32,000 bases of DNA from an uncultured bacterium (GTDB lineage Bacteria > Margulisbacteria > WOR-1 > CAVSGV01). The DNA lies in the NCBI GenBank assembly GCA_963699255.1, contig OY969425.1:720001-752000 (forward strand), written 5' to 3'. The notes below the pieces were generated by a model. That model saw only the letters and a program-made list of their open reading frames with translations, searched no databases and was not told where the DNA came from. The translations under genes were made by a program, and so were the position numbers. Shown piece after piece: positions 3,394 to 32,000 of this stretch (position 1 is its first letter; the number at the start of each line of letters is the position of its first letter).

Positions 3394-3402
3394 AGGATGC
3401 AA

Positions 3403-14111: not shown

Positions 14112-15251
14112 CTAATCCAGCACTACCAGTTTCCCGCTCCCGATGACACTGTCGCCCGAGATTATCTTGTAAATATACATGCCGTTACCGGCGACTTCGC
14201 CGCCGAGAGACCTTCCGTCCCAGTTCACCTGGTTCGTCCCGCCCCTGCCCCCGTTCGTGCCGGAGCTGAACCTCATCCTCTTTACTTCCTGTCCCGTTAT
14301 GTCATATATGATTATTGTGGTCGCCGCGTCCCTGGACAGCGTATATTGAATGGTCGTAGTAACACCTGACAGAGGACTGAACGGATTGGGATAATTATAT
14401 ATCCCTCCCACGACCTGGACCGCCCCGCTTAATATCTTGGCTTCCATCGTGATGTCGCGGGCCTCAGCGTTTATGTTCTCCAGATGAAAAGCTAACAGAC
14501 GCTTCTGATGGGAACTCGGTATTACCTTGAAGTTGGTCAGCCATGTCCCGTACACAGGGCTTCCGGAAATGAGGCTTAACGGGGGGTAAACGGGAATATT
14601 GTCAACGCTCAACACTACGGAAGTAACCCCAACCCCTACTTCGCTGGATATGACAGCTTCCAGGCTTACGTTCGATGATATTATGTCTCCCGACCTGAAC
14701 ACCACGCCGTTTATCCTTACCGATACTATCGACATGACCAGAGCCTGGGCTTCCGGCGTAAAAATGTTTGACACTTCAAAAGAAGGAACCGCCCATTCTA
14801 ACGGCATGGGAGGGTCACCCGCGTCAAGTGTTGAAGAAAGCTGGGAATCGCCGTAATAGCTGGATGATTCGACATTGGGGCCGTTCCATGCCCTCACGTA
14901 GATATGGCTTCCATCGATCAGGGATTGGCTGCCCGCGAAATCCCTGATGAACGCGCCGTCGCCAATCCCGCCCTCCCCTACGGATCCCGTCCATATGATA
15001 GAATCTCCGCCTGTCGGCACGCCGGTCTGGCCCGGAGCATGGATCGTCTCTTCTGACGCATAAATGACCTGGATAACTTCTCCGGTAGGCATCTTGGCGC
15101 CGTCATTGTCATATATTGCCTGGTTCGTCCCGTCCATCAGAACATCAATGGTTACCGCTTCCGCCTGCTGCGGAACGATCAATGACCAGATCCCAATGAC
15201 AAATAAACCCCCGATAACAAACAAACAATTTACAAATTTGTCATATGTCAT
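14112..15251 (-). CDS. Secreted protein: N-terminal YVRAW-type domain, central Ig-like region, C-terminal FlgD-Ig / T9SS type A-like sorting domain
   Basis: I prefer the start at ATG 15251, with SD AGGAGA 7 nt upstream, over the ORF-track start 15344. Signal peptide MTYDKFVNCLFVIGGLFVIGIWSLIVPQQAEA. The C-terminal 94 aa (NYPNPFSP...IIIYDITGQEV...VNWDGRS...GMYIYKI) match the FlgD_ig/Por_Secre_tail pattern. Confidence 0.75.
   Translation of the reverse strand: MTYDKFVNCLFVIGGLFVIGIWSLIVPQQAEAVTIDVLMDGTNQAIYDNDGAKMPTGEVIQVIYASEETIHAPGQTGVPTGGDSIIWTGSVGEGGIGDGAFIRDFAGSQSLIDGSHIYVRAWNGPNVESSSYYGDSQLSSTLDAGDPPMPLEWAVPSFEVSNIFTPEAQALVMSIVSVRINGVVFRSGDIISSNVSLEAVISSEVGVGVTSVVLSVDNIPVYPPLSLISGSPVYGTWLTNFKVIPSSHQKRLLAFHLENINAEARDITMEAKILSGAVQVVGGIYNYPNPFSPLSGVTTTIQYTLSRDAATTIIIYDITGQEVKRMRFSSGTNGGRGGTNQVNWDGRSLGGEVAGNGMYIYKIISGDSVIGSGKLVVLD
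14115..14396 (-). other. FlgD-Ig / T9SS type A-like C-terminal domain
   Basis: NYPNPFSPLSGVTTTIQYTLSRDAATTIIIYDITGQEVKRMRF...VNWDGRSLGGEVAGNGMYIYKIISGD...KLVVLD. Confidence 0.7.
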
Positions 15252-15351
15252 TTTTGATCTCCTTGTCATTTGTCCCGCCACCTTATTATTAATATCTAAT
15301 GTGTTACGGGATCCCGCTCTGCGGGAATATTTGAAATTGGTCATTCCATTC

Positions 15352-16908
15352 TTAAGGTTTAGGCCTTAACCCCCACATCAACGGACTTGGCTTTCTTCTG
15401 TTATAGAAATATCCTTTGTCAGGCTCTATCGCCCATGTTGGCGCAAGCCCTGTATTTACATCGATCCAGGTCCCCGATAACGAAAGATATGCCTCGTTAA
15501 AATCCGTTGTCCCAGGTATGTACTGGTAGATCACGTCCGCCGTTCCCGCGTCCCCCGTCCCGGCCCCCGATTCATAAAGATTTGAATTATCCAGGGTCAT
15601 CGGCTCCGCCTGCCCGGCGGCGATCAAGCTGAATCCGGACTCCATCGTAGACGGCCCCATGTATCCTCCCACCGCTCCAAACTGAGTCCCTGTAACGTTG
15701 GACATATTCGACCAGTTTGGTGCTGCATCATCCGACTTTATAGCGAAAAACTTCAGCCCAGCCGACAGTCCCCCGATGGTCACTTCCTGTGTTAAACCGT
15801 AATTCAGCGGCGCAGGCGTTGCGTAAGCAGGATCTACGGACGTCGCAAGATACCAGTCCACGAACCCTTCAAGAGTAGATGCTATGATCGGCTCCGAGCT
15901 GTACCTTATGTCATATCCCGACACATTGACATGATCGCCCAATCTGTCAGTATCGTACGGCGCTGTCCATTCCAGCGTCACCGTGTATGATCCCGCGCTC
16001 CCTCCAGAATCCTTTATCCTGAGGTCCGTTATTGTCTGCGGCGGCGTATTATCCGGGATGCGCAGCGTATGGAATGGTACAGATGTACTCCAGCCGCTTT
16101 CTCCAAATGAATTCCCCGCTTTCACCTTCACCCAATAATCAGTATCGTCGGACAGCCCCGTCATCCCTATCGACTTCAAGTCAGTCGAGTTCGGCGACGG
16201 ATAACGCTGCGTATTATACGACGGCGAGGACGTCCATCCGTTCGCGTTCGAGTCCAGTCCCCAGCTTATCACATAGTATCTCGCTCCAAAGGATGCCTCA
16301 AAAGTCGCCGTTGCGCTGGTAGTAGAAGGAGTCGGCACCAGTCCTGTGGGCGTGTCCGGCGCGGTCTTTGAGAACATTACCTGAAAATCTGAAAGCGCTA
16401 TCTCATTCGGCACTGGCGGCGTGTCCGGATTCGTGGTCGCAGTGAATATCTGGGATTCTCCGAACTTTGAATTGATTAAGCTGGGATCATTGTCCCACGC
16501 ACGCACGTAAAAGTAATTAACGCTCTCCTGCCCCGTTATACCATGATAGAACTTACCAGCCAGACTTGAAAACGAATCGTACTTATCCGCGTCATCTCCC
16601 ACATAATATGATTGCACAAAGCTCTCTCCGACCCCTACATTCCCGTCGCTCTGAGGACCAATTATATAGTTGTTTGACGCGTTTATGTACTGCAGCAGCT
16701 TCCCCGATGCCAGCGCAGACCCGGTATCATCCTTCACCGTCCCGAACGTGCTGAACCCCAGAGGTGCGGTGTACGGCGCCTGGTTAGGCGCGCAGCCCGC
16801 GTTCACCGAATAGTACGCGCAGTACGCTGGGCTCACCCAGCCTCCCATTATCACGATCAGCATAAAGATCAGTACCTTTAGCTTCCTTTTCATTTTATTT
16901 TTCTCCAT
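15352..16908 (-). CDS. Secreted protein: N-terminal YVRAW-type domain, two FN3-like domains, C-terminal tail domain shared with the giant protein
   Basis: SD AAGGAGGA lies 6 nt upstream of ATG 16908. Signal peptide MEKNKMKRKLKVLIFMLIVIMGGWVSPAYCA. FN3-like segments (PDTPTGL...YWVKVKAGNSFGESGWS; PPQTITDL...LEWTAP...YDIRYS). The C-terminus ...IEPDKGYFYNRRKPSPLMWGLRPKP parallels the giant protein's C-terminus. Confidence 0.75.
   Translation of the reverse strand: MEKNKMKRKLKVLIFMLIVIMGGWVSPAYCAYYSVNAGCAPNQAPYTAPLGFSTFGTVKDDTGSALASGKLLQYINASNNYIIGPQSDGNVGVGESFVQSYYVGDDADKYDSFSSLAGKFYHGITGQESVNYFYVRAWDNDPSLINSKFGESQIFTATTNPDTPPVPNEIALSDFQVMFSKTAPDTPTGLVPTPSTTSATATFEASFGARYYVISWGLDSNANGWTSSPSYNTQRYPSPNSTDLKSIGMTGLSDDTDYWVKVKAGNSFGESGWSTSVPFHTLRIPDNTPPQTITDLRIKDSGGSAGSYTVTLEWTAPYDTDRLGDHVNVSGYDIRYSSEPIIASTLEGFVDWYLATSVDPAYATPAPLNYGLTQEVTIGGLSAGLKFFAIKSDDAAPNWSNMSNVTGTQFGAVGGYMGPSTMESGFSLIAAGQAEPMTLDNSNLYESGAGTGDAGTADVIYQYIPGTTDFNEAYLSLSGTWIDVNTGLAPTWAIEPDKGYFYNRRKPSPLMWGLRPKP
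15355..15636 (-). other. C-terminal tail domain of the 518-aa protein (GFSLIAAG ... IEPDKGYFYNRRKPSPLMWGLRPKP)
   Basis: It shares GF(N/S)L, G(T/S)W, (F/I)EP(G/D)(R/K)GY(W/F), a Trp 6-7 residues from the end, and a terminal PKP with the giant protein's tail. Confidence 0.55.
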
Positions 16909-16932
16909 CTCTTTTCCTCCTTAAAATTAAAT

Positions 16933-19900
16933 TCAGGGTTTTGGATAAACCCAATCCACATCTCCCGCACTGTTCTTTATGACCCAGTATCCTCTTCCAG
17001 GCTCAAACGTCGTTAACGCCCCGCTCCAGCTCCCGCCGGAGTATATCGCGGGCTTCCATGTATTGTTGATATAACCCCACACCTTGTCAGATGAAGTTAA
17101 ATAACTGCTCAGGTTCGTCTGCGCCATCGTTCGCGTCGTGTTATATGCCGTGCCCACAAGATTAGCCTTTTGACCCTTTAAGGCTATCGTTCGATCTGTC
17201 CCCGATAAATTACCTGTGACCTCCACCGTTACAGCGCTGTTAACCTTTATCCAGTAACCCTTATCCGCTTCTATCGAAGTCAACGACCCTTTCCATGTCC
17301 CGTCATAATACGCTATTCTCCACCCGCTAGATGGCGAATAGGAATATATATATGCTGTTAACCCCGCCAGCTGATCCCCTATTACGCTGCTGATGGATGT
17401 ATCTTCCGGTATCACAGGCAGTGAGAACAGATTGAATCCAGCAGCCAGAGGCATCTTCAATCCAGGCGGCGTTATCGTGAGACTGAACTGCTTGTCATTT
17501 ACGACCGGCTGGCTGTCCCCAACCTCCACAGTGAACGTCTGGATCTCGAATGTAGACGGTGTCCCATGCAGCAAGCCGCTGGTTTCCAGCGTCAACCCAA
17601 GCGGCAGGCTCCCGCTTTTTAAGGACCACGTATATGGGGCCACTCCGCCCGTCGCGACAAGTGTCATATTATATGCGGAACCCTCCATCCCGTCCGGCAG
17701 CTGAGACGCCGTCGTGATTATCAACGGGTTTATCGCCGATGCCGTATATCCCGTATAATGGTAGCCCATGTCAACTGTCCCTGAATCGCCGTTCACTCCG
17801 TTCGGGTTGGTCCCATATCCATGCACATAGTCGAGTCCAAGGTCGGAAGCCTCGCCGGTACCCTTATCAATGCACTCCGAAGTAGTGAGAAGATACACAT
17901 TTCCTTTTGGCCCGCTGGCAAACAGCGGCTCCGAGCTGATATTGCCTGTACCCGTGTAGCCGTTCTGAATATCTGAATAGGTTACTGTTGGAGTGGAAGT
18001 GGCATCGTTGGAGATGCTTACTCCGGAAGTTTGATAATATATGATCGAGTTCTTGATCGTCGGGGAGCAGTTTTCGTCATAGATCCCGCCGCCGCTGTGC
18101 GCTTCCGCACTATTTAAAGTTAATGTGCAGTTTATGATGGTTGCGGGGCAATTATTGTTATAAATACCGCCGCCTTCGCTGGTCGCACTATTTGAAATAA
18201 AAGTACAGTTTTTGATCGTCGGAGAGCAGGGGTTGTAGTTATATAATGCGCCGCCGCCAAAGACACTTGTCGCGCTATTTGAAGTAAAGGTGCAGCTTTC
18301 AATGGTTGCGGACGCATAGTTGTTAACTATCGCTCCACCATAACCCCCGATATTTAAAGTAAAGGTACAGTTCGAGACTTCCGGGGAGGCGGCCCAATTA
18401 TACATACAGCCGCCGCCGTCCTGGCTGTATGTTCTATTTGATGTAAAGGTGCAGTTCGTGATGATAGAAGGTGTATTGGTGCCGGTGGTATTATAGTTAT
18501 ATATTGCGCCGCCGAAATCTCCGCTGTTCGACGCAAAGGAACAATTTGAAACCGTTGCGGTAGCATTGGAGTTATAAATCGCTCCGCCCTCGCTGGTCGC
18601 GCAATTTGAAGTAAAGTTGCAGTTCTTAATTATCGGGGAGGCAGTGGTAATATTATATATCCCGCCTCCGCCGGTACTCTTATTGCTGACAGTTGTTGAC
18701 TTATTTGAAGTAAAGGTGCAGTTTGTAATGGTCGGAGCGGAGCTGTTGTTAACTATCCCTCCGCCGCTACCCCCGGCACTGTTTGACTCAAAGGTGCAGT
18801 ATGAGATGAACGGAGACGAGCTGGCCCAGTTACGCATCCCGCCGGCGTTGCTTGTGGTCGCCCTATTTGAAGTAAAGGTGCAGTTCATTATGGTCGGGGA
18901 GGAACCGCTGTTATCCATCCCGGCAGCTACTGTCGCAACATTTGTAGTAAAGGCGCAGTACATGATGGTTGGGGAGGATCCGGTGAAGTCAGCCATCCCG
19001 CCGCCGCCTGATGCGAGGTTTAAATTAAAGGTGCAGTATATGACTTCGGGGGATGAGGTCAAGCAGTAGATCCCGCCGCCTTCGATCGTCGCATTATTGG
19101 AAGTAAACGCGCAGTTCGTTATGGTCGGAGAAGAGCTGGTAAGATAAAGCCCGCCGCCGTTGCCGGTCATATAACCCTTTTTAATCGTGAAATTCTCAAT
19201 AGTGGTGGGGGAACTAAGATTGGATCCATACATGCACTGGACCTTGCCCTCTCCGGATATTATGGTAGTGGTGGCGTCGCCGGTCGGGCTCCAATTACCG
19301 TCAAACCCTCCTTTTAAATATGTCCCGCTGTCCAGGGTAATGGTTTGTGTCAGGTGATAGACTCCCATCCTCACAAAGATAGCGTCACTGGTTACCGCGA
19401 CAGTCTCGGCGCTGTTGATCGTCTTGAACGGATCTGTCGGACTTCCGCTCCCGGGTCCCGCAACTCCGGCATCAACATACCAGTAATTATTGAAGTGTCC
19501 ATACGGCCCGGAGTCCAGGGTCGTCGGATTAGCTATGTTATCTCCATTGAAACTCTTTAGATGCAGATACCAGCCGTCGGTTGGCGCTTCCAATGTCAAA
19601 AGGCCGCTGCTCCAAGTGGTGCCCCCTCCTCCCCACGTCTCGGTCGCGCTCTGGGTCCATGTATATTGATAATACTGCACTCCTCCGGGTCCGAAGGCAG
19701 GCATGCTGGTGAATGTGCATGTTGTCCCGATCTTATTTGATGTCACATTGGGAGGAACAGCCCATGTATATTTCGCGTCAGTGGTCGATGGCAGAGATTC
19801 TCCGCCGTCGTTATATGAATGAACATGACGGGTATACTGGGTGTTGGCGGTCAATCCGCTCTCCACGGTGGTGTAGATCCCGGCACCTATGAGAGCTTCC

Positions 19901-22900
19901 AGACTTGAATAAGAATTATGCAAGCTATATCCTATTTCCCCAACTACGTTACTAGCCCATGACCAATGGATAGTAGAAACAGATTCTGCGGTGCCGAGGA
20001 AACCTGACGGCGCATCAGGATAAGCAACTCCACCTGTATATCCGGTATAATGATAGCCCATATCCACTATCCCGGTATCGCCTTTTGTCATATCCGTGTT
20101 GGTCCCACAACCCTCCGTCGATCCCAGCCCAATGGTGTTGGCGTCGCCGGAGCCGGAATTGGTGCATGGAGAGTAATCTAAAAGATGCACATCACCACCC
20201 GCCGCATTCACAAAGAGCGCATCCGCGCTGATATTGCCGGTCCCCGGGTAGCCCCCCTGAATGCAGGAGTAGGTTACCTCCGGAGTAGAAACGGCATCAT
20301 TAGAGATGTTCCCTCCAGAAGTTTGATAATATACAATCGAGTTCTTGATCTTTGGAGAGGCCGATGAGTAAGCATATATCCCGCCGCCATTCGCAGAACT
20401 ATTTGAAGTAAAAGTGCAGTTTGAAATGATCGGAGCGGAGGAGCTGAAATTCTGAATTCCACCGCCGTAAACAGACCCGCTGTTGAGAGTGAAAATACAG
20501 TTCGTAATGGTTGGAGAAGCAGCGATATTGAAAATTCCGCCGCCGGAACCACTTGTCGCACTATTTGAAATGAAAGAGCAATTTGAAATGCTTGGGGAAG
20601 AATTGCTGTTATATATACCGCCGCCGGACCCATTGGCCTTATTTGAAGTAAAAGCGCAGTTTGAAATCGCCGGGGTATCTAAAATGTTATAGATCCCGCC
20701 GCCATTATTACTTGCGTTGTTCGAAGTAAAAGCACAACTTGAAATGAGCGGATAAGATGAAGTGTAGTTGAATATTCCACTGCCATTGACCGCACTATTG
20801 AAAGTAAAGGCGCAGTTTAATATCTTTGGAGAAGATGTCGCGTTATACATTCCCCCACCGCCGTAGGAAGTGCTTTTTGCCTCATTCGAAGTGAATATAC
20901 AGCTGATTATCCTCGGAGAAGAATTGTTTAGATAAAGCCCCGCGCCGGCATCCGCGCTGCCGCTGCGAACGGTAAAATATTCAACAGTAGTTGCAGAACT
21001 AAGATAGGACCCATACATGCATCCGACTGTGGCATCTCCGGATATTACGGTAGTTGTGGCGTCGCCGGTTGAATTCCAATTACCATCAAATCCTCCTCTT
21101 AAATATGTCCCGCTGTCAAGAGTGATTGTGGATGTAAGACGATATACCCCCATCCTCACATAGATAGCTTCGCCGGTAACCGCTTTCGCCTCGGCACTGT
21201 TGATCGTTTTAAATGGATCTAATTGAGTGCCGCTCCCGGGTCCCGCAACTCCGGCATCCACATACCAGTACTTATTGAAAGGCCCGTACGGCCCGGAGTC
21301 CAGGGTCGTCGGATTGGCTATGTTATCTCCATTGAAACTCTTTAGATGCAGATACCAGCCGTCGGTTGGCGCTTCCAATGTCAAAAGGCCGCTGCTCCAA
21401 GTGGTGCTCCCTCCTCCCCAGGTCTCGGTTGCGCTCTGGGTCCATGTATATTGATAATACTGCACTCCTCCGGGTCCGAAGGCAGGCATGCTGGTGAATG
21501 TGCATGTTGTCCCGATCTTATTTGATGTCACATTGGGAGGAACAGCCAACGTATATTTCGCGTCAGTGGTCGACGGCAGTGACTCTCCGCCGTCGTTATA
21601 TGAATGAACATGACGGCTATACTGGGTGTTGGCGGTCAAACCGCTCTCCAGCGTTCCGGTAGCGTCAACCGTGGCAAGGCATATCAAATTGTGGTTGGCA
21701 TCATGCAGAGAATACCCTATCTCATCTATCACACTGCTGCTATCCCACGACCACTGGATTTGTGAAGTAGATTCAGCGGTGCCCAGGAAGCTTTCCGGCG
21801 TAGCAGGACAGGAAACCCCCGATAAATATCCGGAATAATGGTAGCCCATGTCCACGATCCCGGTATCGCCGTAGGCTTCATTAGTGTTGGTACCGAAACC
21901 CTCCAGCGAACTTAAGCCAAGAACATGGGCGTCGCCGCTTCCGGAATTGGTGCAGGGAGAGTAATCTAAAAGCCGCAGATTTGTGGGCGCGTTCACAAAG
22001 AGCGAATCAGCGCTGATATTTCCTGTCCCCGAATAGCCGCCTTGAATGCAAGAATAGGTTATAGCTGGGGAAGATCCGTTGCTGTTCCTTATGACGTTTA
22101 ATGATCCGGAATTCCCATAAATGATCGAGTTTAAAATATTCGGGGAGCAGTAGTTCGCATTACAGATCGCGCTGCCGTCGATGCCTGAGATGTTTGAATT
22201 AATGGTGCAGTTTGAAATGGTTGGGGAGGAATATAGGGTGTTATATATCCCGCCGCCGTACTGAGTGGCCTCATTTGAAGTAAAGGCGCAATTTGTAATG
22301 GTTGGGAAGGTAGGGTAGTTAGAGGCGGCAGAGCCATAGAACCCGCCGCCGTCAACTGCAACATTTGAAGTATAGGTGCAGTTTGAAATGTGCAGGGTGC
22401 TTAGGTAGGCGTTATACATCCCGCCGCCGTACTGAGTGGCCTCATTTGAAGTAAAGGTACAGTTTGAAATGGTTGGGGAGGTATGGTAGTTAGAGGCGGC
22501 ATTGCTATAGAACCCACCGCCGTCAACTGCAATATTTAAAGTAAAGGCGCAGTTTGAAATGGTTGAGGATGAGTAGTTGCTGATCCCGCCGCCATAGCTT
22601 GCAACGTTTGAAATAAAGGCGCTGTTCGAGATGATCGAGACGGAGGTGACGTTATATATCCCGCCGCCATAACCGGCTTCTGAGCTGTTTGAGGAAAATG
22701 TACAGCTTTCTATGGTCGGGCTGGAGTAGGTTTCGTTATATATCCCGCCGCCGCCGGATGTCGCGTCACATGAAGTAAAGGTGCAGCCAAAGATTCTCCG
22801 GAGAAGAGGTGTGGTTGAATATCCCTCCCCCATAGCCGTTGATCGAGCTGTTTGTTGTAAAACCGCAATTTGAGATGTTCGGGGAGGCACTTGCGTCATA

Positions 22901-23070
22901 TATCCCCCCTCCGTAACCGGTATTAGACTTATTTGAATGAAAAGTACAGCCGGAAATGGTCGGGGAAACACCGTTATTATATATCCCGCCGCCGTAACTC
23001 GTTGTGCTATTTGACTCAAAGGTGCAGTTTGAAATGTTCGGGGTGGAGGAGACAGTGTTGAATACTGCAC
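16933..23070 (-). CDS. Giant repetitive beta-helix surface protein, C-terminal segment (ORF 3 of 3; genuine frame begins near 22795)
   Basis: From ...IFGCTFTSCDATSGGGGIYNE onward the ORF is Pmp-like coils, caps, and FN3 plus beta-sandwich spacers. It ends with a He_PIG Ig domain and a 176-aa tail domain. The first roughly 90 codons of the ORF-track translation are an out-of-frame reading of the upstream segment. Confidence 0.85.
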   Translation of the reverse strand: MQYSTLSPPPRTFQTAPLSQIAQRVTAAGYIITVFPRPFPAVLFIQISLIPVTEGGYMTQVPPRTSQIAVLQQTARSTAMGEGYSTTPLLRRIFGCTFTSCDATSGGGGIYNETYSSPTIESCTFSSNSSEAGYGGGIYNVTSVSIISNSAFISNVASYGGGISNYSSSTISNCAFTLNIAVDGGGFYSNAASNYHTSPTISNCTFTSNEATQYGGGMYNAYLSTLHISNCTYTSNVAVDGGGFYGSAASNYPTFPTITNCAFTSNEATQYGGGIYNTLYSSPTISNCTINSNISGIDGSAICNANYCSPNILNSIIYGNSGSLNVIRNSNGSSPAITYSCIQGGYSGTGNISADSLFVNAPTNLRLLDYSPCTNSGSGDAHVLGLSSLEGFGTNTNEAYGDTGIVDMGYHYSGYLSGVSCPATPESFLGTAESTSQIQWSWDSSSVIDEIGYSLHDANHNLICLATVDATGTLESGLTANTQYSRHVHSYNDGGESLPSTTDAKYTLAVPPNVTSNKIGTTCTFTSMPAFGPGGVQYYQYTWTQSATETWGGGSTTWSSGLLTLEAPTDGWYLHLKSFNGDNIANPTTLDSGPYGPFNKYWYVDAGVAGPGSGTQLDPFKTINSAEAKAVTGEAIYVRMGVYRLTSTITLDSGTYLRGGFDGNWNSTGDATTTVISGDATVGCMYGSYLSSATTVEYFTVRSGSADAGAGLYLNNSSPRIISCIFTSNEAKSTSYGGGGMYNATSSPKILNCAFTFNSAVNGSGIFNYTSSYPLISSCAFTSNNASNNGGGIYNILDTPAISNCAFTSNKANGSGGGIYNSNSSPSISNCSFISNSATSGSGGGIFNIAASPTITNCIFTLNSGSVYGGGIQNFSSSAPIISNCTFTSNSSANGGGIYAYSSASPKIKNSIVYYQTSGGNISNDAVSTPEVTYSCIQGGYPGTGNISADALFVNAAGGDVHLLDYSPCTNSGSGDANTIGLGSTEGCGTNTDMTKGDTGIVDMGYHYTGYTGGVAYPDAPSGFLGTAESVSTIHWSWASNVVGEIGYSLHNSYSSLEALIGAGIYTTVESGLTANTQYTRHVHSYNDGGESLPSTTDAKYTWAVPPNVTSNKIGTTCTFTSMPAFGPGGVQYYQYTWTQSATETWGGGGTTWSSGLLTLEAPTDGWYLHLKSFNGDNIANPTTLDSGPYGHFNNYWYVDAGVAGPGSGSPTDPFKTINSAETVAVTSDAIFVRMGVYHLTQTITLDSGTYLKGGFDGNWSPTGDATTTIISGEGKVQCMYGSNLSSPTTIENFTIKKGYMTGNGGGLYLTSSSPTITNCAFTSNNATIEGGGIYCLTSSPEVIYCTFNLNLASGGGGMADFTGSSPTIMYCAFTTNVATVAAGMDNSGSSPTIMNCTFTSNRATTSNAGGMRNWASSSPFISYCTFESNSAGGSGGGIVNNSSAPTITNCTFTSNKSTTVSNKSTGGGGIYNITTASPIIKNCNFTSNCATSEGGAIYNSNATATVSNCSFASNSGDFGGAIYNYNTTGTNTPSIITNCTFTSNRTYSQDGGGCMYNWAASPEVSNCTFTLNIGGYGGAIVNNYASATIESCTFTSNSATSVFGGGALYNYNPCSPTIKNCTFISNSATSEGGGIYNNNCPATIINCTLTLNSAEAHSGGGIYDENCSPTIKNSIIYYQTSGVSISNDATSTPTVTYSDIQNGYTGTGNISSEPLFASGPKGNVYLLTTSECIDKGTGEASDLGLDYVHGYGTNPNGVNGDSGTVDMGYHYTGYTASAINPLIITTASQLPDGMEGSAYNMTLVATGGVAPYTWSLKSGSLPLGLTLETSGLLHGTPSTFEIQTFTVEVGDSQPVVNDKQFSLTITPPGLKMPLAAGFNLFSLPVIPEDTSISSVIGDQLAGLTAYIYSYSPSSGWRIAYYDGTWKGSLTSIEADKGYWIKVNSAVTVEVTGNLSGTDRTIALKGQKANLVGTAYNTTRTMAQTNLSSYLTSSDKVWGYINNTWKPAIYSGGSWSGALTTFEPGRGYWVIKNSAGDVDWVYPKP
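16936..17463 (-). other. Unassigned 176-aa C-terminal tail domain of the giant protein (GFNLFSLP ... EPGRGYWVIKNSAGDVDWVYPKP)
   Basis: It carries an internal duplication (GTWKGSLTSIEADKGYWIKVNSA and GGSWSGALTTFEPGRGYWVIKNSA). Its final part is homologous to the C-terminus of the 518-aa protein. Confidence 0.6.
17464..17733 (-). other. He_PIG-type putative Ig domain within the giant protein
   Basis: LPDGMEGSAYNMTLVATGGVAPYTWSLKSGSLPLGLTLETSGLLHGTPSTFEIQTFTVEVGD matches the classic LPxGxxGxxY...atGG..PytW....G.LP.GL.L....G.l.GtP pattern (PF05345 expected). Confidence 0.8.
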
Positions 23071-26000
23071 CGCCTCCGGCTCCGGCGCTGTTCGAAGTGA
23101 ACGTGCAGTTTGAAATGGTCGGGGAAGAGGAGTTGTTGTTCCCTATCCCGCCGCCGCGGCCGGTGGACGCGTTATTTGCGGTATTTGAATTAAAAGTACA
23201 GTTTGAAATGGCCGGGGAAGCGTATCCGTTCCATATCGCGCCGCCGCCAAAAGTTGTGGTGCTGTTCGATCCAAAGGCACAAGATAAGAAGGTCGGGGAG
23301 GCGTAGTTGTTATATATCGCGCCGCCATAATTCGCGCTGGTATTTGAAGTAAAGGTGCAGTTTAAGACCTCCGGGGTAGAGTTGTGGCAATACATCGCGC
23401 CACCGCCCTGTCCGCTCGCGTTATTGAAACTAAAGGCGCAGTTCGTGATGGTCGGGGAGGAACTCTCAAGAGAAAGTCCGCCGCCATTGCCGGTAGTATA
23501 ACCTTTCTTTATGGTAAAGCCTTCGATCGTAGTAGCAGAACTAAGTCCGGTTCCATACAAACACTGGACTATGGCGTCCCCGGATATTATGGTAGTTGAG
23601 GCGTCACCGGTTGAACTCCAGTTACCGTCAAAACCTCCTTTTAAGTATGTCCCGCTATCCAGAGTAATTGTGGCCGTTAGTCGATATACTCCCATCCTCA
23701 CATAGATAGCTTCTCCGCTGGATGCTTTTGCCTCAGCGCTGTTGATCGTCTTGAACGGATCCGACGGAGTACCGGTTCCCGGACCGGCAACGCCGGCATC
23801 AACATACCAGTAATTATTGAAAGGCCCGTACGGCCCGGAGTCCAGGGTGGTCGGATTGGCTATGTTATCTCCGTTATAGCTCTTAAGATGCAGATACCAG
23901 CCGTCCGTTGGAGCTTCCAATGTCAAAAGGCCGCTGCTCCATGTGGTGCTCCCTCCTCCCCACGTCTCGGTCGCGCTCTGGGTCCATGTCCATTGATAGT
24001 ACTGCACTCCTCCGGGACCTACAGCCCCAAAAGTAGGCACACTGGTGAATGTGAACGACGTACCAACTTTATTATATGTGACACTGGGAGGGAGCGCCCA
24101 AGTGTATTTCGCGTCAGTGTTCGATGGCAGAGATTCTCCGCCGTCGTTATACGCATGCACGTGACGGCTGCACAGCGTATTGGCTGTCAATCCAGCCTCT
24201 TTGGTGGTGGTTGCGTCAGCTGCCTCGAGAACTTTCAAATTGTGATAATCATCATGCACAGAATATCCGATCTCGCCCGCCACATCGCTCCATGTCCATT
24301 GAATTTCTGAAGTTGAGCTTGCAGTGCCGCTGAATGTTGCCGGCGCGGCGGGACAGGGAACCCCGGATGAATATCCGGTGTAATGGTAACCCATATCCAC
24401 TATCCCGGTATCACCGTGAGTAGTATCCGGGTTTGTTCCATAACCCTCCAGCGATCCCAGCCCGAGCAAGTGGGCGTCGCCGGTCCCGGAATTTGTGCAC
24501 GGGGAATAATCTAAAAGATGCACATTCCCGGCCGGACCATTAACAAATTGCGGCTCCCCGCTGATATTGCCTGTCGCGGCAATTAACGGCTGGACACAGG
24601 AATATGTCACGATCGGATTAGAAGAGCTGATATTATAAATATTACCAGCATTAAGGGCGGCGCATGAATTTTTGCAAATGATCGAATTGGTTATCACAGG
24701 GGAACACGAGCCGAAATTATAGATCCCGCCGCCGTAACTCGTGGCGCTGTTTGAAGTTAAGGTGCAATTTGATATAGACGGGGAAGAATTACCTTCATCG
24801 TATATCGCGCCTCCGTTCACCGCGCTGTTCAAGGCGAAAGCGCAGTTGGAAATGACCGGTGAGCAGGACCCGTTGTTATATATACCGCCGCCATAATAAC
24901 CAGTCGAGCTGTTTGAAGTAAAGACGCAATTTATTATTACCGGGCAAGAAATAGACATGTCACAGATGCCGCCTCCGGCGGCCGCGCTGTTTGAAGTAAA
25001 GATGCAATTCATCACTTCCGGAGAAGAATAACTGTTAAATATGGCGCCGCCTGAGTTGCTCCCAATATTAGAAGTAAAGGTGCAGCTTGATATTATTGGA
25101 GAGGCTTTGTCGTTATAAATTCCGCCGCCCTGGTAAACATTATTTGAGGCGAAAAGACAATTCAAAATGAGCGGAGAAGTTTGAACATTATAGATCCCGC
25201 CCCCATAGCCATTATTCGTGTTATTTGTAAAGGCACAACCTGATATCTGCGGAGAGGAGTATAAGATATATATCCCGTTGCCGTTGCCACTTGCCTTATT
25301 TGAAGTAAAAGTACAATTAATTATGGATGCAGAGGACGAAATAAGATAAAGTCCTCCGCCACTGCCTGCGATAAAACCATTCTTTATAGTAAAGCCTTCA
25401 ACCGTAGTGGCGGAGCTAAGATTTTTCCCATACATGCACTGGACTATGGCATCTCCGGATATTATGGTAGTTGTGGCATCACCGGTTGAACTCCAGTTAC
25501 CGTCAAAGCCTCCTCTTAAATATGTCCCGCTATCGAGAGTAATGGTTTGGGTCAGATGATATACTCCCATCCTCACATAGATAGCTTCACCGCTGGATGC
25601 TTTCGCCTCAGCGCTGTTGATCGTTTTAAATGGATCCGAAGGAGTACCGGTTCCCGGCCCCGCAACTCCGGCATCAACATACCAGTAATTATTGAATGGC
25701 CCATACGGCCCGGAGTCCAGCGTGGTCGGATTTGCGATCCCATCACCGTTAAAGCTCTTAACATGCAAATACCAGCCGTCCGTTGGAGCTTCCAAAGTCA
25801 AAAGGCCGCTGCTCCAAGTTGTGCTCCCTCCTCCCCACGTCTCGGTCGCGCTCTGGGTCCATGTCCATTGATAATATTGCACTCCTCCGGGACCTACAGC
25901 CCCAAAAGTAGGCACGCTTGTGAATGTGAATGTGGTTCCGACTTTACTGGATGTCACATTGGGAGGAACAGCCCATGTATATTTCGCGTCAGTGGCCGAT

Positions 26001-28888: not shown

Positions 28889-31800
28889 AGTTTAAGATGG
28901 TCGGGTCGGATATATTAGTTAGATAAATCCCGGCGCCAATACCTTTGCCATTTCTTATGGTTAAATTCTCAATTGTGGTGGCGGAACTGAGTCCGGTTCC
29001 ATACATGCACTGGACAATGGCATCTCCTGATATTGTTGTGGTAGTTGCATCTCCAGTAGGGCTCCAATTACCGTCAAAGCCTCCTCTTAAATATGTCCCG
29101 GTGTCTAGAGTAATTGTGGATGTCAGATGATAGAGTCCCATCCTCACAAAGATAGCTTCACCGCTGGATGCTTTCGCCTCGGCGCTGTTGATCGTCTTGA
29201 ACGGATCTGACGGAGTCCCGGTTCCCGGTCCGGCAACACCGGCATCCACATACCAGATCGTGGAGACGTTTTGCGTATATCCGGAATAATGGTACCCCAT
29301 GTCCACGATCCCGGTATCGCCGTGAATGCCATCCGGGTTTGTCCCGTAACCCTGCTGCCATCCCAGATTAAGGTCTGAAGCCTGGCCTGTCCCGGCGTTT
29401 ACGCACTCCGAAGTCGGGAGAAGGTGCACATCAGCGGCCGGTCCGTTTACAAATAGCGGCTCCGCGCTGATATTGCCTGTACCCGGGTAGCCGTCCTCAA
29501 TGCAGGAGTAGATAACGGTTGGAGAAGAGCTGTCATCATAAATGTTCCCTCCTGAATTTCCATAAATGATCGAGTTTAAGATGATCGGTGAGGTGAAGGA
29601 GTTATATATTCCGCCGCCGCTGCTTGCACTATTTGAAGTAAAGGTGCAGTTTGAAATGATCGGGGCAGAGGAGCTGTCATCAAATATTCCGCCGCCGATG
29701 GCGCTTGTACTATTTGAAGCAAAAACGCAGTTTAAAATGGTCGGAGAAGCCGCAGAGAGATAAAGCCCTCCTCCACCATAGTCGCTGCTATTTAAAGTGA
29801 AGACGCAGTGCAAGATGGTTGGAGAGGAACTGCTGAGATAAAGCCCGCCGCCATAGTCGTAGCCATTATAGCCGTTCTGTATGGTAAAACATTCAATGGT
29901 CGTGTTTGAGCCAAGATCGTATCCATACATGCACGGGACATTTCCTTCTCCGGATATTATGGTGGTTGAGGCTTCGCCGGTCTGGTTCCAGTTATTGTCA
30001 TACCCTCCCCTCAGATATATGCCGTCATAAAGAGTGATGGTCCCCGGTCCGTATCCATTCTGGTATAGATAGTAGATCCCCCGCCTCACACGTATCTCAT
30101 CCCCGCTTGCCGCCGCCGCCTCAGCCAGATTGATCGTTCTAAATGGATCCCACTGGGTGCCGCTTCCCTGACCGGAAGCGGCCGCGTCTACATACCAGTA
30201 TGGATATGAATCGTAGGGCCCATAGTCCGCGGTGCCGCTGGCAACACCATCATGGTTAAAGCTCTTAACATGCAAATACCATCCCTCACCGGTAGCCAGT
30301 AAAGTTATGTTGCCGCTGCTCCATGTGCTCTCCCCGCCTCCCCAGGACTCGGTTGGGATCTGATCCCAGGTATACTTATAGTATTGAACCCCTCCCGCTC
30401 CAAAGACAGCTTCATTAGTAAAATTAAAAGATGCCGTATTGTATGGGAGACGGGTTTTTTGATAGGCGACCTCGGGAGAAAGAGAGAGGGTATATTTTGA
30501 ATAACTATTTGAAGGCGCCGAATCCCCGCCGTTGTTATAAGCATGGACATGCCGGGTATATTGGGTATTAGCGCTCAGTCCAGACTCCAGGCTTGCGGTA
30601 ACATCAGCTCCTGTAAGTCCTTTCAAATTCTGACTGTCATCATTAAGGCAATATCCATCCTCCCCCGCCACATCGCTCCATGACCACAAGATGGAAGAAG
30701 CGGATTCCACGGTGCCGATGAAGTTTGACGGCTGAGCAGGAGGACTGGCAGTTGCCTGCGAATACCCGGTGTAATGGTAACCCATGTCCACGATCCCGGT
30801 ATCGCCGTGAATGCCATCCTGGTTGGTTCCATAGCCCTGCTGCCATCCCAGACCAAGAGCTGAAGCGTCGCCGGTCCCGCCATTGACGCAGGGCGAGTAA
30901 TTATAAAGACGCACATTAGCGGGCGCGCCCACGAACTGCGGCTCCCCGCTGATATTCCCGGTCCCGGTGTAGCCGCCCTGGATACAGGAATAGGTAACAG
31001 TTGAACTGGATGAGGTTCTATTTGAGATGTTTCCTCCGGAAGCTTGATAATAAATGATACAGCTTTCGATGGTCGGGGCGGAAGAGGAATCGTTAAGTAT
31101 GGCGCCGCCGTTATGTGCGCTATTTGAATTAAAGGTGCAGTTTGAGATAGTTGGCGAGGATGAGACGTTATATATCCCGCCGCCGCCGTTATTGGAAAAA
31201 GATGATAAATTTGAAGTAAAGACGCAGTTTGAAATGGCTGGGGAGGAGGAGTCGTTAAGTATCCCGCCGCCGCTGCTTGCGCCATTTGAAGTAAAAGCGC
31301 AATTATTGATCGTTGGGAAGGAGTTGTAGTCAGATATCCCGCCGCCGCCCTGAACAGCTCCAACATTTGAAATAAAGGTGCAGTAATTGATCGTCGGTGA
31401 TGAGTTGTAGTTGGATATCCCGCCGCCATAATTATTTGCCTGATTTGAAGTAAAGACGCAATTTAATATGGTCGGGGAGGAACTCTCAAGAGAAAGACCC
31501 GCGCCATAGCCGGAGGTATAACCTTTTTTTATGGTGAGATCTTCAACGGTAGTAGCGGATGTAAGCCCGCTTCCGCTCATGCACCGGACGGTACCCTCTC
31601 CGGATATTATCGTCGCTGAGGCGTCAGTGGTTCGAACATCCCAATTGCTAAGGTCATAACCACCCATCAAATGGACGCCGCTTTTGAGAGTGATAGTGCC
31701 TGTGCCCGGAGCGTTCAGATGGTAGACTCCCTGCCTCACATGTATCTCTTCTGTGCCGGTGGCAGCCGCTTCGGCGCTGTTGATCGTTTTGAACGGATCA

Positions 31801-32000
31801 CCAATAGTCCCGCCTCCTGGACCGGTAACATTAGAATCAACATACAAGATGAGACCTGAAGGAGGCGCAGCAGCGCTTATGGTGAACACGCCGCTTTCCC
31901 CTGTCCCCAGGTTGTAATATGTATCCACCGCGTTCATCTTTATTTTGGCCGTGGTGGTAGGAACATCGGTGACTATCCAGGGATAGATCCCGTCATTATC
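28737..32000 (-). CDS. Giant repetitive beta-helix surface protein, N-proximal segment (5' end lies beyond the window)
   Basis: The frame stays open from ATG 31937 to position 32000 (DNDGIYPWIVTDVPTTTAKIK-MNAV...), so the gene starts outside the window. It contains modules 1-2 and the start of module 3, and stops 6 codons after ...IYNNYSTPE. Confidence 0.85.
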   Translation of the reverse strand, partial: DNDGIYPWIVTDVPTTTAKIKMNAVDTYYNLGTGESGVFTISAAAPPSGLILYVDSNVTGPGGGTIGDPFKTINSAEAAATGTEEIHVRQGVYHLNAPGTGTITLKSGVHLMGGYDLSNWDVRTTDASATIISGEGTVRCMSGSGLTSATTVEDLTIKKGYTSGYGAGLSLESSSPTILNCVFTSNQANNYGGGISNYNSSPTINYCTFISNVGAVQGGGGISDYNSFPTINNCAFTSNGASSGGGILNDSSSPAISNCVFTSNLSSFSNNGGGGIYNVSSSPTISNCTFNSNSAHNGGAILNDSSSAPTIESCIIYYQASGGNISNRTSSSSTVTYSCIQGGYTGTGNISGEPQFVGAPANVRLYNYSPCVNGGTGDASALGLGWQQGYGTNQDGIHGDTGIVDMGYHYTGYSQATASPPAQPSNFIGTVESASSILWSWSDVAGEDGYCLNDDSQNLKGLTGADVTASLESGLSANTQYTRHVHAYNNGGDSAPSNSYSKYTLSLSPEVAYQKTRLPYNTASFNFTNEAVFGAGGVQYYKYTWDQIPTESWGGGESTWSSGNITLLATGEGWYLHVKSFNHDGVASGTADYGPYDSYPYWYVDAAASGQGSGTQWDPFRTINLAEAAAASGDEIRVRRGIYYLYQNGYGPGTITLYDGIYLRGGYDNNWNQTGEASTTIISGEGNVPCMYGYDLGSNTTIECFTIQNGYNGYDYGGGLYLSSSSPTILHCVFTLNSSDYGGGGLYLSAASPTILNCVFASNSTSAIGGGIFDDSSSAPIISNCTFTSNSASSGGGIYNSFTSPIILNSIIYGNSGGNIYDDSSSPTVIYSCIEDGYPGTGNISAEPLFVNGPAADVHLLPTSECVNAGTGQASDLNLGWQQGYGTNPDGIHGDTGIVDMGYHYSGYTQNVSTIWYVDAGVAGPGTGTPSDPFKTINSAEAKASSGEAIFVRMGLYHLTSTITLDTGTYLRGGFDGNWSPTGDATTTTISGDAIVQCMYGTGLSSATTIENLTIRNGKGIGAGIYLTNISDPTILNCVFTAFNVYGYSTIYDNSSSPTIARCIFTANSGSGIYNNYSTPENLKLHF

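What the first reader, a model, noticed from the sequence alone, without database searches (positions are those of the whole stretch)
14112..16932. Two secreted accessory proteins directly downstream share domains with the giant protein and with each other in a mosaic pattern
Seen in sequence:
- The giant gene's stop (16933) lies 24 nt from the SD-led start of a 518-aa secreted protein.
- A 379-aa secreted protein follows after 100 nt. That gap contains a small hairpin (cccgc-aga-gcggg) and AT-rich promoter-like sequence.
- The 518-aa and 379-aa proteins share an N-terminal domain of about 130 aa (...YVRAWDNDPSLINSKFGESQIF...PPVPNEIALSDFQV versus ...YVRAWNGPNVESSSYYGDSQLS...PPMPLEWAVPSFEV; about 16354-16806 and 14757-15155).
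- The 518-aa protein shares its C-terminal tail with the giant protein.
- The 379-aa protein instead ends in a FlgD-Ig/T9SS-type domain.

Inference: the three genes look like one surface module, with a fibre plus two adaptor or anchor components and two different C-terminal domains. This could be an uncharacterised cell-surface assembly or attachment system.
Basis: partly seen in the sequence, partly recalled or inferred. Interest (0 to 1): 0.7.

Follow-up and report, generated by a model that had tools for sequence, protein, structure and literature searches.

The report
Conserved surface-protein docking gene trio
A giant secreted fibre protein and the two smaller secreted proteins encoded after it share two undescribed end domains, and this gene arrangement recurs in distant microbes, so it is probably a new way of hooking large proteins to the cell surface.

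Summary
The 518-aa and 379-aa proteins share an N-terminal ~135-aa domain (BLASTP E 4e-9). The 518-aa protein ends in one copy of an ~85-aa unit that the giant protein carries twice (hhalign against an independent profile: 99%, E 3.7e-18). The 379-aa protein ends in a T9SS type A / FlgD-Ig domain above curated cut-offs.

Neither shared domain matches Pfam, NCBIfam or PDB sequences. The tandem tail models at pLDDT 97 and has no Foldseek match in PDB or BFVD. An exhaustive HMMER search finds the tail unit in 1310 protein clusters. It is nearly always doubled and usually at the extreme C-terminus of unrelated passengers.

I chose five tail proteins by tail alone. In four, the next gene downstream starts with the N-domain (E 1e-15 to 1e-44). 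One is in a Candidatus Saganbacteria MAG, followed by a PorV/PorQ-family barrel fused to SLH domains. One locus is probably archaeal.

My best reading is a head-to-tail docking chain. The tail of the distal protein binds the N-domain of the next protein, and the 379-aa protein is the T9SS-type cell anchor. Binding is inferred, not shown. Both domain families and their pairing look undescribed.

The parts
16933..32000 (-). Giant secreted beta-helix / PMP-repeat / fn3 protein gene. It reads as three long ORFs (28737-32000+, 22766-28888, 16933-23070) and continues beyond the window end.
   Evidence: ORF list and translations. Pfam Beta_helix 6e-46, Chlam_PMP and fn3. The frame stays open to position 32000.
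17209..17457 (-). Tail unit 1 of the giant protein.
   Evidence: hmmsearch with the unit profile A3 on the six-frame translation, i-E 3.6e-32. Part of the AF2 model with pLDDT 96.9.
16936..17193 (-). Tail unit 2 of the giant protein. It ends in W-V-Y-P-K-P at the C-terminus.
   Evidence: hmmsearch A3 i-E 4.4e-34. AF2 model.
16909..16932 (-). 24-nt spacer with an AAGGAGG Shine-Dalgarno sequence between the giant gene's stop and the 518-aa start.
   Evidence: Read directly from the sequence.
15352..16908 (-). 518-aa secreted protein: signal peptide, N-domain, two fn3-like domains and one tail unit.
   Evidence: It has 13 close homologues at 61-78% identity.
16366..16815 (-). N-domain ('YVRAW' beta-sandwich) of the 518-aa protein.
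   Evidence: hmmsearch A6 i-E 1.7e-64. BLASTP against the 379-aa protein, E 4e-9. AF2 pLDDT 78, pTM 0.79.
15694..16335 (-). Two fn3-like domains of the 518-aa protein, about residues 192-405.
   Evidence: Pfam fn3 and Pur_ac_phosph_N hits below cut-off. tblastn matches to fn3 arrays in L002 and L003.
15355..15645 (-). Single tail unit at the C-terminus of the 518-aa protein. It ends in W-G-L-R-P-K-P.
   Evidence: hmmsearch A3 i-E 9.6e-34. hhalign against the independent profile A5: 99%, E 3.7e-18.
15313..15325 (-). Small hairpin (cccgc-aga-gcggg) in the 100-nt gap. Probably not a terminator.
   Evidence: Read from the sequence. No terminator-like or promoter-like site is called in the gap.
14112..15251 (-). 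379-aa secreted protein: signal peptide, N-domain, an Ig-like middle region and a T9SS type A / FlgD-Ig C-terminal domain. The start could also be 15269 or 15344.
14760..15158 (-). N-domain of the 379-aa protein.
   Evidence: hmmsearch A6 i-E 1.1e-51.
14121..14393 (-). T9SS type A sorting / FlgD-Ig domain of the 379-aa protein, residues 287-377.
   Evidence: TIGR04183 at 38.0 bits against cut-off 23, and FlgD_ig at 34.4 bits against cut-off 27.

Best explanation
The three genes encode one cell-surface display module assembled head to tail.

**Proposed chain.** The C-terminal tandem 'tail' of the giant beta-helix protein is an address tag. It docks onto the N-terminal beta-sandwich ('N-domain') of a protein encoded just downstream. 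The 518-aa protein has an N-domain at one end and a single tail unit at the other. It can therefore act as an adaptor, or possibly as a repeating shaft subunit. The 379-aa protein has an N-domain but ends in a T9SS type A / FlgD-Ig domain, which makes it the cell-proximal anchor. That domain would be held at the outer membrane by the type IX pathway, or by a PorV/PorQ-like barrel. Gene order would match assembly order, from distal to proximal.

**Shown.** Both domain homologies, secretion signals, strict placement of the two domains at the N- and C-termini, the T9SS-type domain, and conserved adjacency across distant lineages.

**Inferred.** Physical binding of the tail to the N-domain, its stoichiometry, and the route across the outer membrane.
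For: 1. **Domain logic in the window.** The arrangement is tail x2, then N-domain plus tail x1, then N-domain plus T9SS-type domain.
2. **The tail defines the module, not the fibre.** In L001 the first gene is a 294-aa protein with the same tail. It is still followed by the 513-aa and 490-aa homologues.
3. **Different flanks.** The trio recurs next to DnaX in L008/L009.
4. **Breadth of the tail.** 1310 representative proteins match at E <= 1e-3. Of the 162 of the 164 held proteins that match the unit profile, 133 have exactly two units and 114 end within 5 aa of the last unit. Lengths run from 82 to 4782 aa.
5. **Independent test.** I picked five tail proteins by tail alone. In four of the five (L012, L013, L016, L019) the next gene begins with the N-domain (E 4.7e-28, 1.1e-19, 1.8e-15, 5.7e-44). 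The intergenic gaps are 2-93 nt.
6. **Saganbacteria locus L019.** The order is tail protein, then N-domain protein with a T9SS-like C-terminal domain, then a PorV/PorQ-family barrel (106 bits against cut-off 90) fused to three SLH domains.
7. **Tag swapping.** In L006 and L013, paralogues with the same passenger type end either in the tail or in a FlgD-Ig domain. The tail therefore sits where a known surface-sorting tag sits.
8. **Both modules in one protein.** P0154 has an N-domain-like start and a tandem tail. P0039 is one ORF that fuses a tail protein to an N-domain protein.
9. **Real domain.** The tail folds as a rigid two-unit body (pLDDT 96.9, pTM 0.91).
Against: - No direct evidence of binding exists. 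No multimer prediction could be run.
- L006 has a 169-aa protein that is only an N-domain with no anchor. That fits a cap or chaperone better than an anchor.
- In L012 and L013 the N-domain proteins end in a different C-terminal domain. It is only marginally related to the tail (hhalign 87% over 27 columns).
- The survey covers few loci, and all come from the best-scoring tail subfamily. One tested locus (L017/L018) showed no N-domain gene, though those contigs are about 3 kb.
- How a tail-bearing protein of more than 5000 aa crosses an outer membrane is unexplained.
- T9SS machinery was not seen in the window.
Confidence: 0.45

Rival explanations
1. The tail is a secretion or sorting signal, not a docking tag. 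On this reading it is a new class of C-terminal domain recognised by an outer-membrane translocon, whether T9SS-like or other. The N-domain proteins would be accessory shuttles, chaperones or plugs for that export step.
For: - The tail sits at the extreme C-terminus and has a conserved terminal motif. 39 of 149 top hits end exactly in W-x-Y-x-[KR]-P-[YF].
- The unit size of about 85 aa and its all-beta content resemble T9SS C-terminal domains.
- The tail swaps with FlgD-Ig domains on the same passengers.
- A PorV/PorQ-family gene lies in L019.
- The anchor-less 169-aa N-domain protein in L006 would suit a chaperone role.
Against: - Known T9SS C-terminal domains are single, not doubled. The tail does not match TIGR04183, PF18962 or PF13585.
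- The pair also occurs next to EarA-family regulators in what is probably an archaeon, which would have no outer membrane.
- The N-domain proteins are themselves large modular surface proteins with their own sorting domains. That is unusual for a chaperone.
Confidence: 0.2
2. The tail is a cell-envelope or glycan-binding module, functionally like SLH, LysM or a CBM. It would attach passengers to a polysaccharide or S-layer. The N-domain proteins would be co-regulated neighbouring adhesins with no direct contact with the tail.
For: - Envelope-binding modules are typically tandem C-terminal repeats on diverse passengers, and this matches the tail's distribution.
- The tail occurs in bacteria and probably in archaea.
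- L019 is a glycan-degrading cluster with GH8, CBM11 and BACON domains.
Against: - It does not explain why the gene immediately downstream carries the N-domain in 4 of 5 independently chosen loci, nor why there is a fused ORF.
- It does not explain why the 518-aa adaptor has only one unit.
- The tail has no structural match to any lectin or CBM in PDB by Foldseek.
Confidence: 0.15
3. There is no system. The three proteins are paralogous adhesins that exchanged generic beta-sandwich domains by local duplication and shuffling, and they are adjacent only because of tandem duplication.
For: - Both models are beta-rich. The N-domain has only weak resemblance to transthyretin-like or TssM C-terminal sandwiches (TM about 0.4, E 0.13).
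- Surface-protein clusters are known to shuffle domains. L013 shows extensive mosaicism.
Against: - The rule 'tail gene then N-domain gene' survives across loci whose passenger domains are unrelated: beta-helix, beta-propeller/TIG, PKD, CBM/BACON. Tail identity there falls to about 30-40%.
- The two domains keep strict terminal positions.
- The module is found with different flanks.
Confidence: 0.1

Closest known systems
T9SS type B C-terminal-domain cargo with a cognate PorP/SprF-like partner encoded next to it (PMC9143113, abstract read; the adjacent-gene detail, e.g. SprB/SprF, is from my own knowledge)
   Same: A large surface protein carries a C-terminal tag. A partner gene placed directly after it is proposed to hold the cargo on the cell surface. 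The module here is also linked to T9SS-type domains and, in L019, to a PorV/PorQ-family barrel.
   Different: The tail matches no T9SS C-terminal-domain model and is doubled. The partner is a soluble secreted modular protein with an N-terminal beta-sandwich, not a PorP-family outer-membrane barrel. The pair probably also occurs in archaea.
Cohesin-dockerin assembly of cellulosomes (named from my own knowledge)
   Same: Hierarchical non-covalent docking through small dedicated modules at protein ends. Adaptors carry both module types, and a final anchoring protein carries a cell-envelope domain. L019 links the pair to GH8, CBM11 and BACON glycan-degrading proteins.
   Different: There is no sequence match to cohesin or dockerin families. 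The tail is an all-beta tandem of about 175 aa, not a roughly 70-aa calcium-binding helical dockerin. Partners here are encoded adjacently, whereas dockerin enzymes are scattered around the genome.
Tip, shaft and anchor logic of donor-strand-exchange pili: chaperone-usher pili and the CPR Pam pilus (bioRxiv 10.64898/2026.03.03.709456)
   Same: One component can sit only at the distal end (giant protein, tail only). One has both interaction ends (518-aa). One has only the proximal module plus a cell anchor (379-aa). This mirrors PamT, PamA/B/E and PamR.
   Different: No chaperone or usher homologue lies in the window or in related loci. The only sequence link is a sub-threshold PamT hit to the N-terminus of P0017 (19.9 bits against cut-off 240). 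There is no evidence of an incomplete Ig fold, because the tail models as a complete domain.
T9SS type A cargo (TIGR04183 / FlgD_ig C-terminal domains)
   Same: The 379-aa protein and its homologues (L001 490 aa, L008 387 aa) pass the curated cut-off for this domain and have signal peptides.
   Different: Only the third gene carries this domain. The giant protein and the 518-aa protein do not. Their route to the surface is the open question.

Membership tests
T9SS type A cargo (applies to the 379-aa protein) | C-terminal sorting domain that matches the family model above its curated cut-off | tested here: met
   TIGR04183 scores 38.0 bits against cut-off 23 (E 1.2e-9), at residues 287-377 of 379. 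Pfam FlgD_ig scores 34.4 against 27. Pfam Por_Secre_tail scores 19.4, below its cut-off of 27.
T9SS type A cargo (applies to the 379-aa protein) | N-terminal Sec signal peptide | tested here: met
   Read from the sequence: MTYDKFVNCLFVIGGLFVIGIWSLIVPQQAEA / VTIDV. No signal-peptide predictor was available.
T9SS type A cargo (applies to the 379-aa protein) | Genome encodes T9SS machinery (SprA/Sov, PorK/L/M/N, PorU, PorV) | not testable with these tools
   The other window genes that gave a Pfam match are housekeeping (Memo/AMMECR1, radical SAM, LCP, M50, DJ-1, PolX, MgsA, an AIRC-domain protein that I take to be LarB), plus a gene I assign to LarC from its N-terminal sequence. The rest of the 1.77-Mb contig could not be fetched. 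In the related locus L019 a PorV/PorQ-family gene is adjacent.
T9SS C-terminal domain, type A or B (applies to the tail of the giant and 518-aa proteins) | Match to TIGR04183, PF18962, PF13585 or a type B model | tested here: not met
   The tail region gave no family at E <= 1 for the 518-aa protein and for the 255-aa C-terminus of the giant, and none at E <= 0.1 for the 1956-aa giant ORF. The same holds for ten diverse tail proteins.
Cohesin-dockerin system | Sequence membership in the Pfam cohesin or dockerin families | tested here: not met
   No such hits in Pfam scans of the three window proteins or of the relatives.
Donor-strand-exchange pili (chaperone-usher or Pam) | Pilin family match, together with a dedicated chaperone (and usher) gene in the cluster | tested here: not met
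   The only hit is NF058579 PamT, at 19.9 bits against cut-off 240, to the N-terminus of relative P0017. No PapD/FimC-like or usher families appear in the window or loci.
Donor-strand-exchange pili (chaperone-usher or Pam) | Incomplete Ig fold completed by a strand from the neighbouring subunit | not testable with these tools
   Only monomer models were possible. The tail models as a complete, rigid body. In the N-domain model the first strand and the loop after it are the low-confidence parts.
Autotransporter / chlamydial Pmp (applies to the giant protein) | C-terminal outer-membrane beta-barrel translocator domain | tested here: not met
   Beta_helix and Chlam_PMP repeats are present, but the C-terminus is the tail. 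No autotransporter barrel is found.
T9SS type B cargo plus PorP/SprF partner | The downstream partner is a PorP/SprF-family outer-membrane barrel | tested here: not met
   The 518-aa and 379-aa proteins have no TIGR03519 hit. They are soluble modular proteins.

The most novel reading that the evidence does not exclude
The tail and the N-domain are the two halves of a previously unrecognised, widespread end-to-end coupling system found in bacteria and probably in archaea.

- A C-terminal tandem beta-domain on any passenger would plug into the N-terminal sandwich of the protein encoded next.
- Proteins carrying both modules would extend or polymerise the chain into a fibre.
- The chain would end in a protein with a T9SS-type domain held by a PorV/PorQ-like barrel.
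- In diderms this could also let proteins without a T9SS signal ride out bound to a signal-bearing partner.

This would amount to a new class of surface-fibre or cellulosome-like assembly.
Probability: 0.3. Interest if true: 0.85.

Novelty: new variant of a known kind. Interest (0 to 1): 0.66.

Why it matters
Giant surface proteins are common in uncultivated bacteria, and how they are held on the cell is mostly unknown.

- **Unannotated domains.** Two domain families lack any Pfam, NCBIfam or PDB sequence counterpart. One of them occurs in at least 1310 protein clusters at 50% identity and models as a very confident fold with no Foldseek match.
- **A simple genomic rule.** A tail-bearing gene is followed by an N-domain gene. 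This rule could annotate thousands of 'hypothetical' surface proteins.
- **A testable binding pair.** The rule predicts which proteins touch which.
- **Reach beyond Bacteroidota.** It links T9SS-type sorting domains and PorV/PorQ-like barrels to lineages such as Candidatus Saganbacteria.
- **Possible use.** If the docking is real, it is a compact, genetically linked tag-and-receptor pair that could serve for surface display.

Tried and rejected
- **Genome collection scan.** A scan with the 518-aa protein found only distant fn3 arrays, in a Zixibacteria MAG and in one unnamed MAG. L002, the Zixibacteria locus, was inspected and has no homologous cluster; L003 was not inspected. The scan gave no taxonomy for the window.
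- **Word-index searches.**
  - The tail search returned only 4 proteins.
  - The N-domain profile search returned only 2. One of them, P0019, led to locus L006.
  - The exhaustive search was needed to see the tail family.
- **Metagenome scan.** The N-domain alignment gave only two loci, both relatives already known.
- **PamT lead.** The hit on P0017's N-terminus was followed into the Pam pilus preprint. It is far below cut-off and no chaperone genes are present, so I keep it only as an analogy.
- **Second C-terminal domain type.** The domain ending the N-domain proteins of L012 and L013 was tested for homology to the tail. The match is marginal (87% over 27 columns) and is not claimed.
- **Covalent chemistry.** The conserved Cys near the mature N-terminus of the 518 family (NAGC) was considered as a thioester or lipid site. 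It was rejected because neither the Cys nor a partner Gln is conserved across N-domains (alignments).
- **Independent transcription of the 379-aa gene.** No promoter or terminator is found in the 100-nt gap.
- **Literature.** Searches by motif strings and by the assembly accession found nothing.
- **More of the source contig.** Attempts to fetch it failed.
Full report
**1. What is in the window**

The minus strand carries a very large gene that reads as three long ORFs: 28737 to the window end, 22766-28888 and 16933-23070. Two smaller genes follow it.

- The giant protein consists of right-handed beta-helix and PMP-type repeats with interspersed fn3 domains (Pfam Beta_helix 6e-46, Chlam_PMP, fn3).
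- Its stop codon is 24 nt upstream of the ATG of a 518-aa ORF (15352-16908), behind an AAGGAGG Shine-Dalgarno sequence.
- One hundred nt after that ORF, an ATG preceded by AAGGAG opens a 379-aa ORF (14112-15251).
- Both small proteins start with a typical signal peptide.
The consensus scan finds no promoter-like or terminator-like site there, so the three genes most simply form one operon.
- The remaining window genes are mostly housekeeping: Memo/AMMECR1 with a radical SAM enzyme, an LCP protein, an M50 protease, DJ-1, PolX, MgsA, and an AIRC-domain protein that I take to be LarB. Two of the scanned ORFs matched no family. The 12906-14084 gene was not scanned; its N-terminal sequence reads like LarC (my assignment from the translation).
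- Exact look-ups place the window on a 1,770,855-bp contig held by NCBI and ENA. I could not establish the organism.

**2. The shared domains are real**

*N-domain.*
- The N-terminal regions of the 518-aa and 379-aa proteins align at 28% identity over 123 residues, E 4e-9.
- A profile of this domain finds exactly two copies in the six-frame translation, at 16366-16815 and 14760-15158.

*Tail.*
- Similarity between the 518-aa and giant proteins is weak by BLASTP (E 0.8). It became clear once the repeat structure was recognised.
- The giant protein ends in two tandem copies of an ~85-aa unit. The 518-aa protein ends in one copy (alignment A3).
- I compared the 518-family tail profile with a 58-sequence profile of tandem tails that contains no 518-family member. 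The result was probability 99.0%, E 3.7e-18 over 89 columns, aligned to the second unit. The alignment includes the very last residues, W-x-(Y/R)-P-K-P.

*379-aa C-terminus.*
- The protein instead ends in a FlgD-Ig / T9SS type A sorting domain that passes both curated cut-offs.

**3. Both shared domains are undescribed**

- Neither domain matches Pfam-A or NCBIfam, in the window proteins or in ten diverse tail-bearing relatives.
- Profile searches of PDB sequences find nothing for either domain.
- With a 58-sequence alignment, the 178-residue tandem tail models with mean pLDDT 96.9 and pTM 0.91. It is a rigid all-beta body of two similar units.
- Foldseek finds no match for the tail in PDB (best E 0.05, TM <= 0.24) or in BFVD.
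- The N-domain models as a beta-sandwich (pLDDT 78, pTM 0.79). It has only insignificant resemblance to TssM C-terminal or transthyretin-like sandwiches (E 0.13, TM about 0.4).

**4. The tail is a widespread C-terminal tag**

- An exhaustive HMMER search of 1.84 billion representative proteins with the unit profile found 1310 proteins at E <= 1e-3 and 123 at E <= 1e-10.
These are the 150 listed hits plus other session proteins, including the 518-aa family.
- Of those 162, 133 have exactly two units and 114 end within five residues of the last unit.
- Lengths run from 82 to 4782 aa.
- Passengers are unrelated to one another: beta-helix, PQQ-like propeller, TIG, fn3 and others.
- Of the 149 that are not 518-family members, 39 end exactly in W-x-Y-x-[KR]-P-[YF].
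- In loci L006 and L013, paralogues with the same passenger type end either in this tail or in a FlgD-Ig domain. The tail therefore occupies the position of a known surface-sorting tag.

**5. The gene neighbourhood is conserved, and the rule is 'tail gene, then N-domain gene'**

*Close relatives of the 518-aa protein (61-78% identity).*
- They lie directly after a giant beta-helix gene with the same 24-nt spacing in L004 and L005.
- They lie in the full trio next to DnaX in L008 and L009.
- In L001 and L011 the first gene is only 294 aa. It consists of a signal peptide, a short segment and the same tandem tail, and the 513-aa and 490-aa homologues still follow. The tail, not the fibre, is therefore the constant part of gene one.

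*Independent test.* I looked up five tail-bearing proteins chosen only by their tail score.

| Locus | Downstream gene | N-domain E-value |
|---|---|---|
| L012 | N-domain protein | 4.7e-28 |
| L013 | N-domain protein | 1.1e-19 |
| L016 | N-domain protein | 1.8e-15 |
| L019 | N-domain protein | 5.7e-44 |
| L017/L018 | another tail paralogue; contigs about 3 kb | none detected |

- Intergenic gaps in the four positive loci are 2-93 nt.
- The distant locus L006 shows the same order.

*What follows the N-domain in these partner proteins.*
- fn3 pairs plus a single C-terminal unit, as in the window, L012 and L013.
- A T9SS-like C-terminal domain, as in the window's 379-aa protein and in L019.
- PKD repeats, as in L016.
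- Nothing at all, as in the 169-aa protein of L006.

*Proteins that combine both modules.*
- P0154 carries an N-domain-like start and a tandem tail.
- P0039 is a single ORF in which a tail protein runs into an N-domain protein.

*Taxonomy of the relatives.*
- L019 belongs to a Candidatus Saganbacteria MAG. There the N-domain protein is followed by a PorV/PorQ-family barrel (NF033709, 106 bits against cut-off 90) fused to three SLH domains.
- L016 sits beside two EarA-family regulators. Pfam describes that family from archaea, so the locus is probably archaeal. This is an inference.

**6. Mechanism**

The simplest model that uses all of this is a head-to-tail chain.

- The tail of the distal protein binds the N-domain of the next protein.
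- The 518-aa protein has both ends. It acts as an adaptor, or perhaps as a polymerising shaft.
- The 379-aa protein has an N-domain but ends in a T9SS-type domain, so it closes the chain at the cell.
- Gene order equals assembly order.

*Shown:* the homologies, the terminal placement of both domains, secretion signals, the T9SS-type domain and the conserved adjacency.

*Inferred:* physical binding, stoichiometry and the export route.

I give this model 0.45. The rivals are:

| Rival | Weight | Main point for | Main point against |
|---|---|---|---|
| Tail is an export signal; N-domain proteins are shuttles or chaperones | 0.20 | The anchor-less 169-aa N-domain protein | Tandem duplication; probable archaeal occurrence |
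| Tail is an envelope- or glycan-binding module; no contact with the N-domain | 0.15 | Tandem C-terminal repeats on diverse passengers | The adjacency rule |
| Domain shuffling among paralogues; no system | 0.10 | Mosaic clusters such as L013 | The rule holds across unrelated passengers |

**7. Comparison with known systems**

- *Closest working analogy.* T9SS type B cargo is reported to associate with PorP-like proteins for surface anchorage (PMC9143113, abstract seen); from my own knowledge, the cognate partner gene lies next to the cargo gene. The module here also resembles cohesin-dockerin hierarchies, and the tip, shaft and anchor logic of donor-strand pili such as the CPR Pam pilus (bioRxiv 10.64898/2026.03.03.709456).
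- *Membership fails for all three.* The tail matches no T9SS C-terminal-domain model. The partner is not a PorP barrel. There is no cohesin or dockerin match. No chaperone or usher genes are present. The only PamT hit is far below cut-off.
- *Known-family member.* Only the 379-aa protein qualifies, as T9SS type A cargo at the domain level. The machinery could not be checked.

**8. Verdict**

The 'one surface module' interpretation is supported in outline and corrected in its wiring. The two domain families and their pairing appear undescribed. I class this as a new variant of a known kind, namely partner-mediated surface display of large proteins. Interest is 0.66. There is a 0.3 chance that it is a general end-to-end coupling or fibre-building system.

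Noticed in passing
window 28754-28763 and 22792-22801 (minus strand): The giant gene is split into three long ORFs by two +1 frame changes. Both sit at the same 13-mer, CTCCGGAGAATCT, and these are the only two copies of CCGGAGAATC on the gene's strand in the whole window. The flanks are diverged. The in-frame form of this repeat motif in relative L012 is CCGGAGATC, so each break is one extra A after a GGAG. GATC is not depleted in the window (217 observed against 125 expected). This could be programmed frameshifting, a mutation spread by gene conversion, or a motif-specific sequencing error.
   Followed up: partly
window 31938-32000 (minus strand): The giant ORF stays open to the window end (...DNDGIYPWIVTDVPTTTAKIKMNAVD...). 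The gene therefore exceeds about 5000 codons, and its start and signal peptide lie outside the window.
   Followed up: partly
outside the window; protein P0005: P0005 is a 521-aa homologue, 71% identical to the 518-aa protein. It is recorded on a contig of exactly the same length (1,770,855 bp) as the window's own proteins. The same genome probably holds a second copy of the module. I could not fetch it.
   Followed up: partly
L013:3831-20768: A 14-gene run in which nearly all products have signal peptides (two small ~110-aa products do not) and which had no precomputed Pfam hit except a faint fn3. N- and C-terminal modules are mosaic. It contains three tandem-tail proteins, several proteins with a second type of single C-terminal domain, three paralogues sharing an (S/A)-(V/A)-P-(F/Y)-A motif, and one protein with a FlgD-Ig-like end. 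SecDF, BacA and FtsK genes lie on one side and a sigma-54 response regulator on the other.
   Followed up: partly
L019:12335-14188: In a Candidatus Saganbacteria MAG, a PorV/PorQ-family outer-membrane barrel is fused to a Glucodextran_B domain and three SLH domains. It lies directly after the N-domain / T9SS-like protein and in a cluster with GH8, CBM11 and BACON proteins.
   Followed up: partly
L001:7405-9012 and L001:13147-19014: In L001 (and, by matching ORF layout, L011) the module is preceded by a Fervidolysin-like S8 peptidase. In L001 it is followed by a 1955-aa protein with YadA-head repeats and a Peptidase_S74 intramolecular-chaperone domain.
   Followed up: no
protein P0039 (relative of the L016 pair): A single 1114-aa ORF runs from a tandem tail (...WNLPKP) through a glycine-rich stretch, ISGGGGMGMSMMKSRSTKIAAQ..., into an N-domain. 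It is either a true fusion of the two partner genes or a lost stop codon.
   Followed up: partly
window 770-3402 (minus strand): A Memo/AMMECR1 fusion protein overlaps a radical SAM enzyme gene. I take this to be the 'AmmeMemoRadiSam' trio in a fused form.
   Followed up: no
protein P0017, residues 9-82: The short N-terminal segment of a 269-aa tail protein has repeated S-x-S-Y motifs. It gives a weak, sub-threshold hit to the CPR pilus tip protein PamT (E 4e-4, 19.9 bits against cut-off 240).
   Followed up: partly
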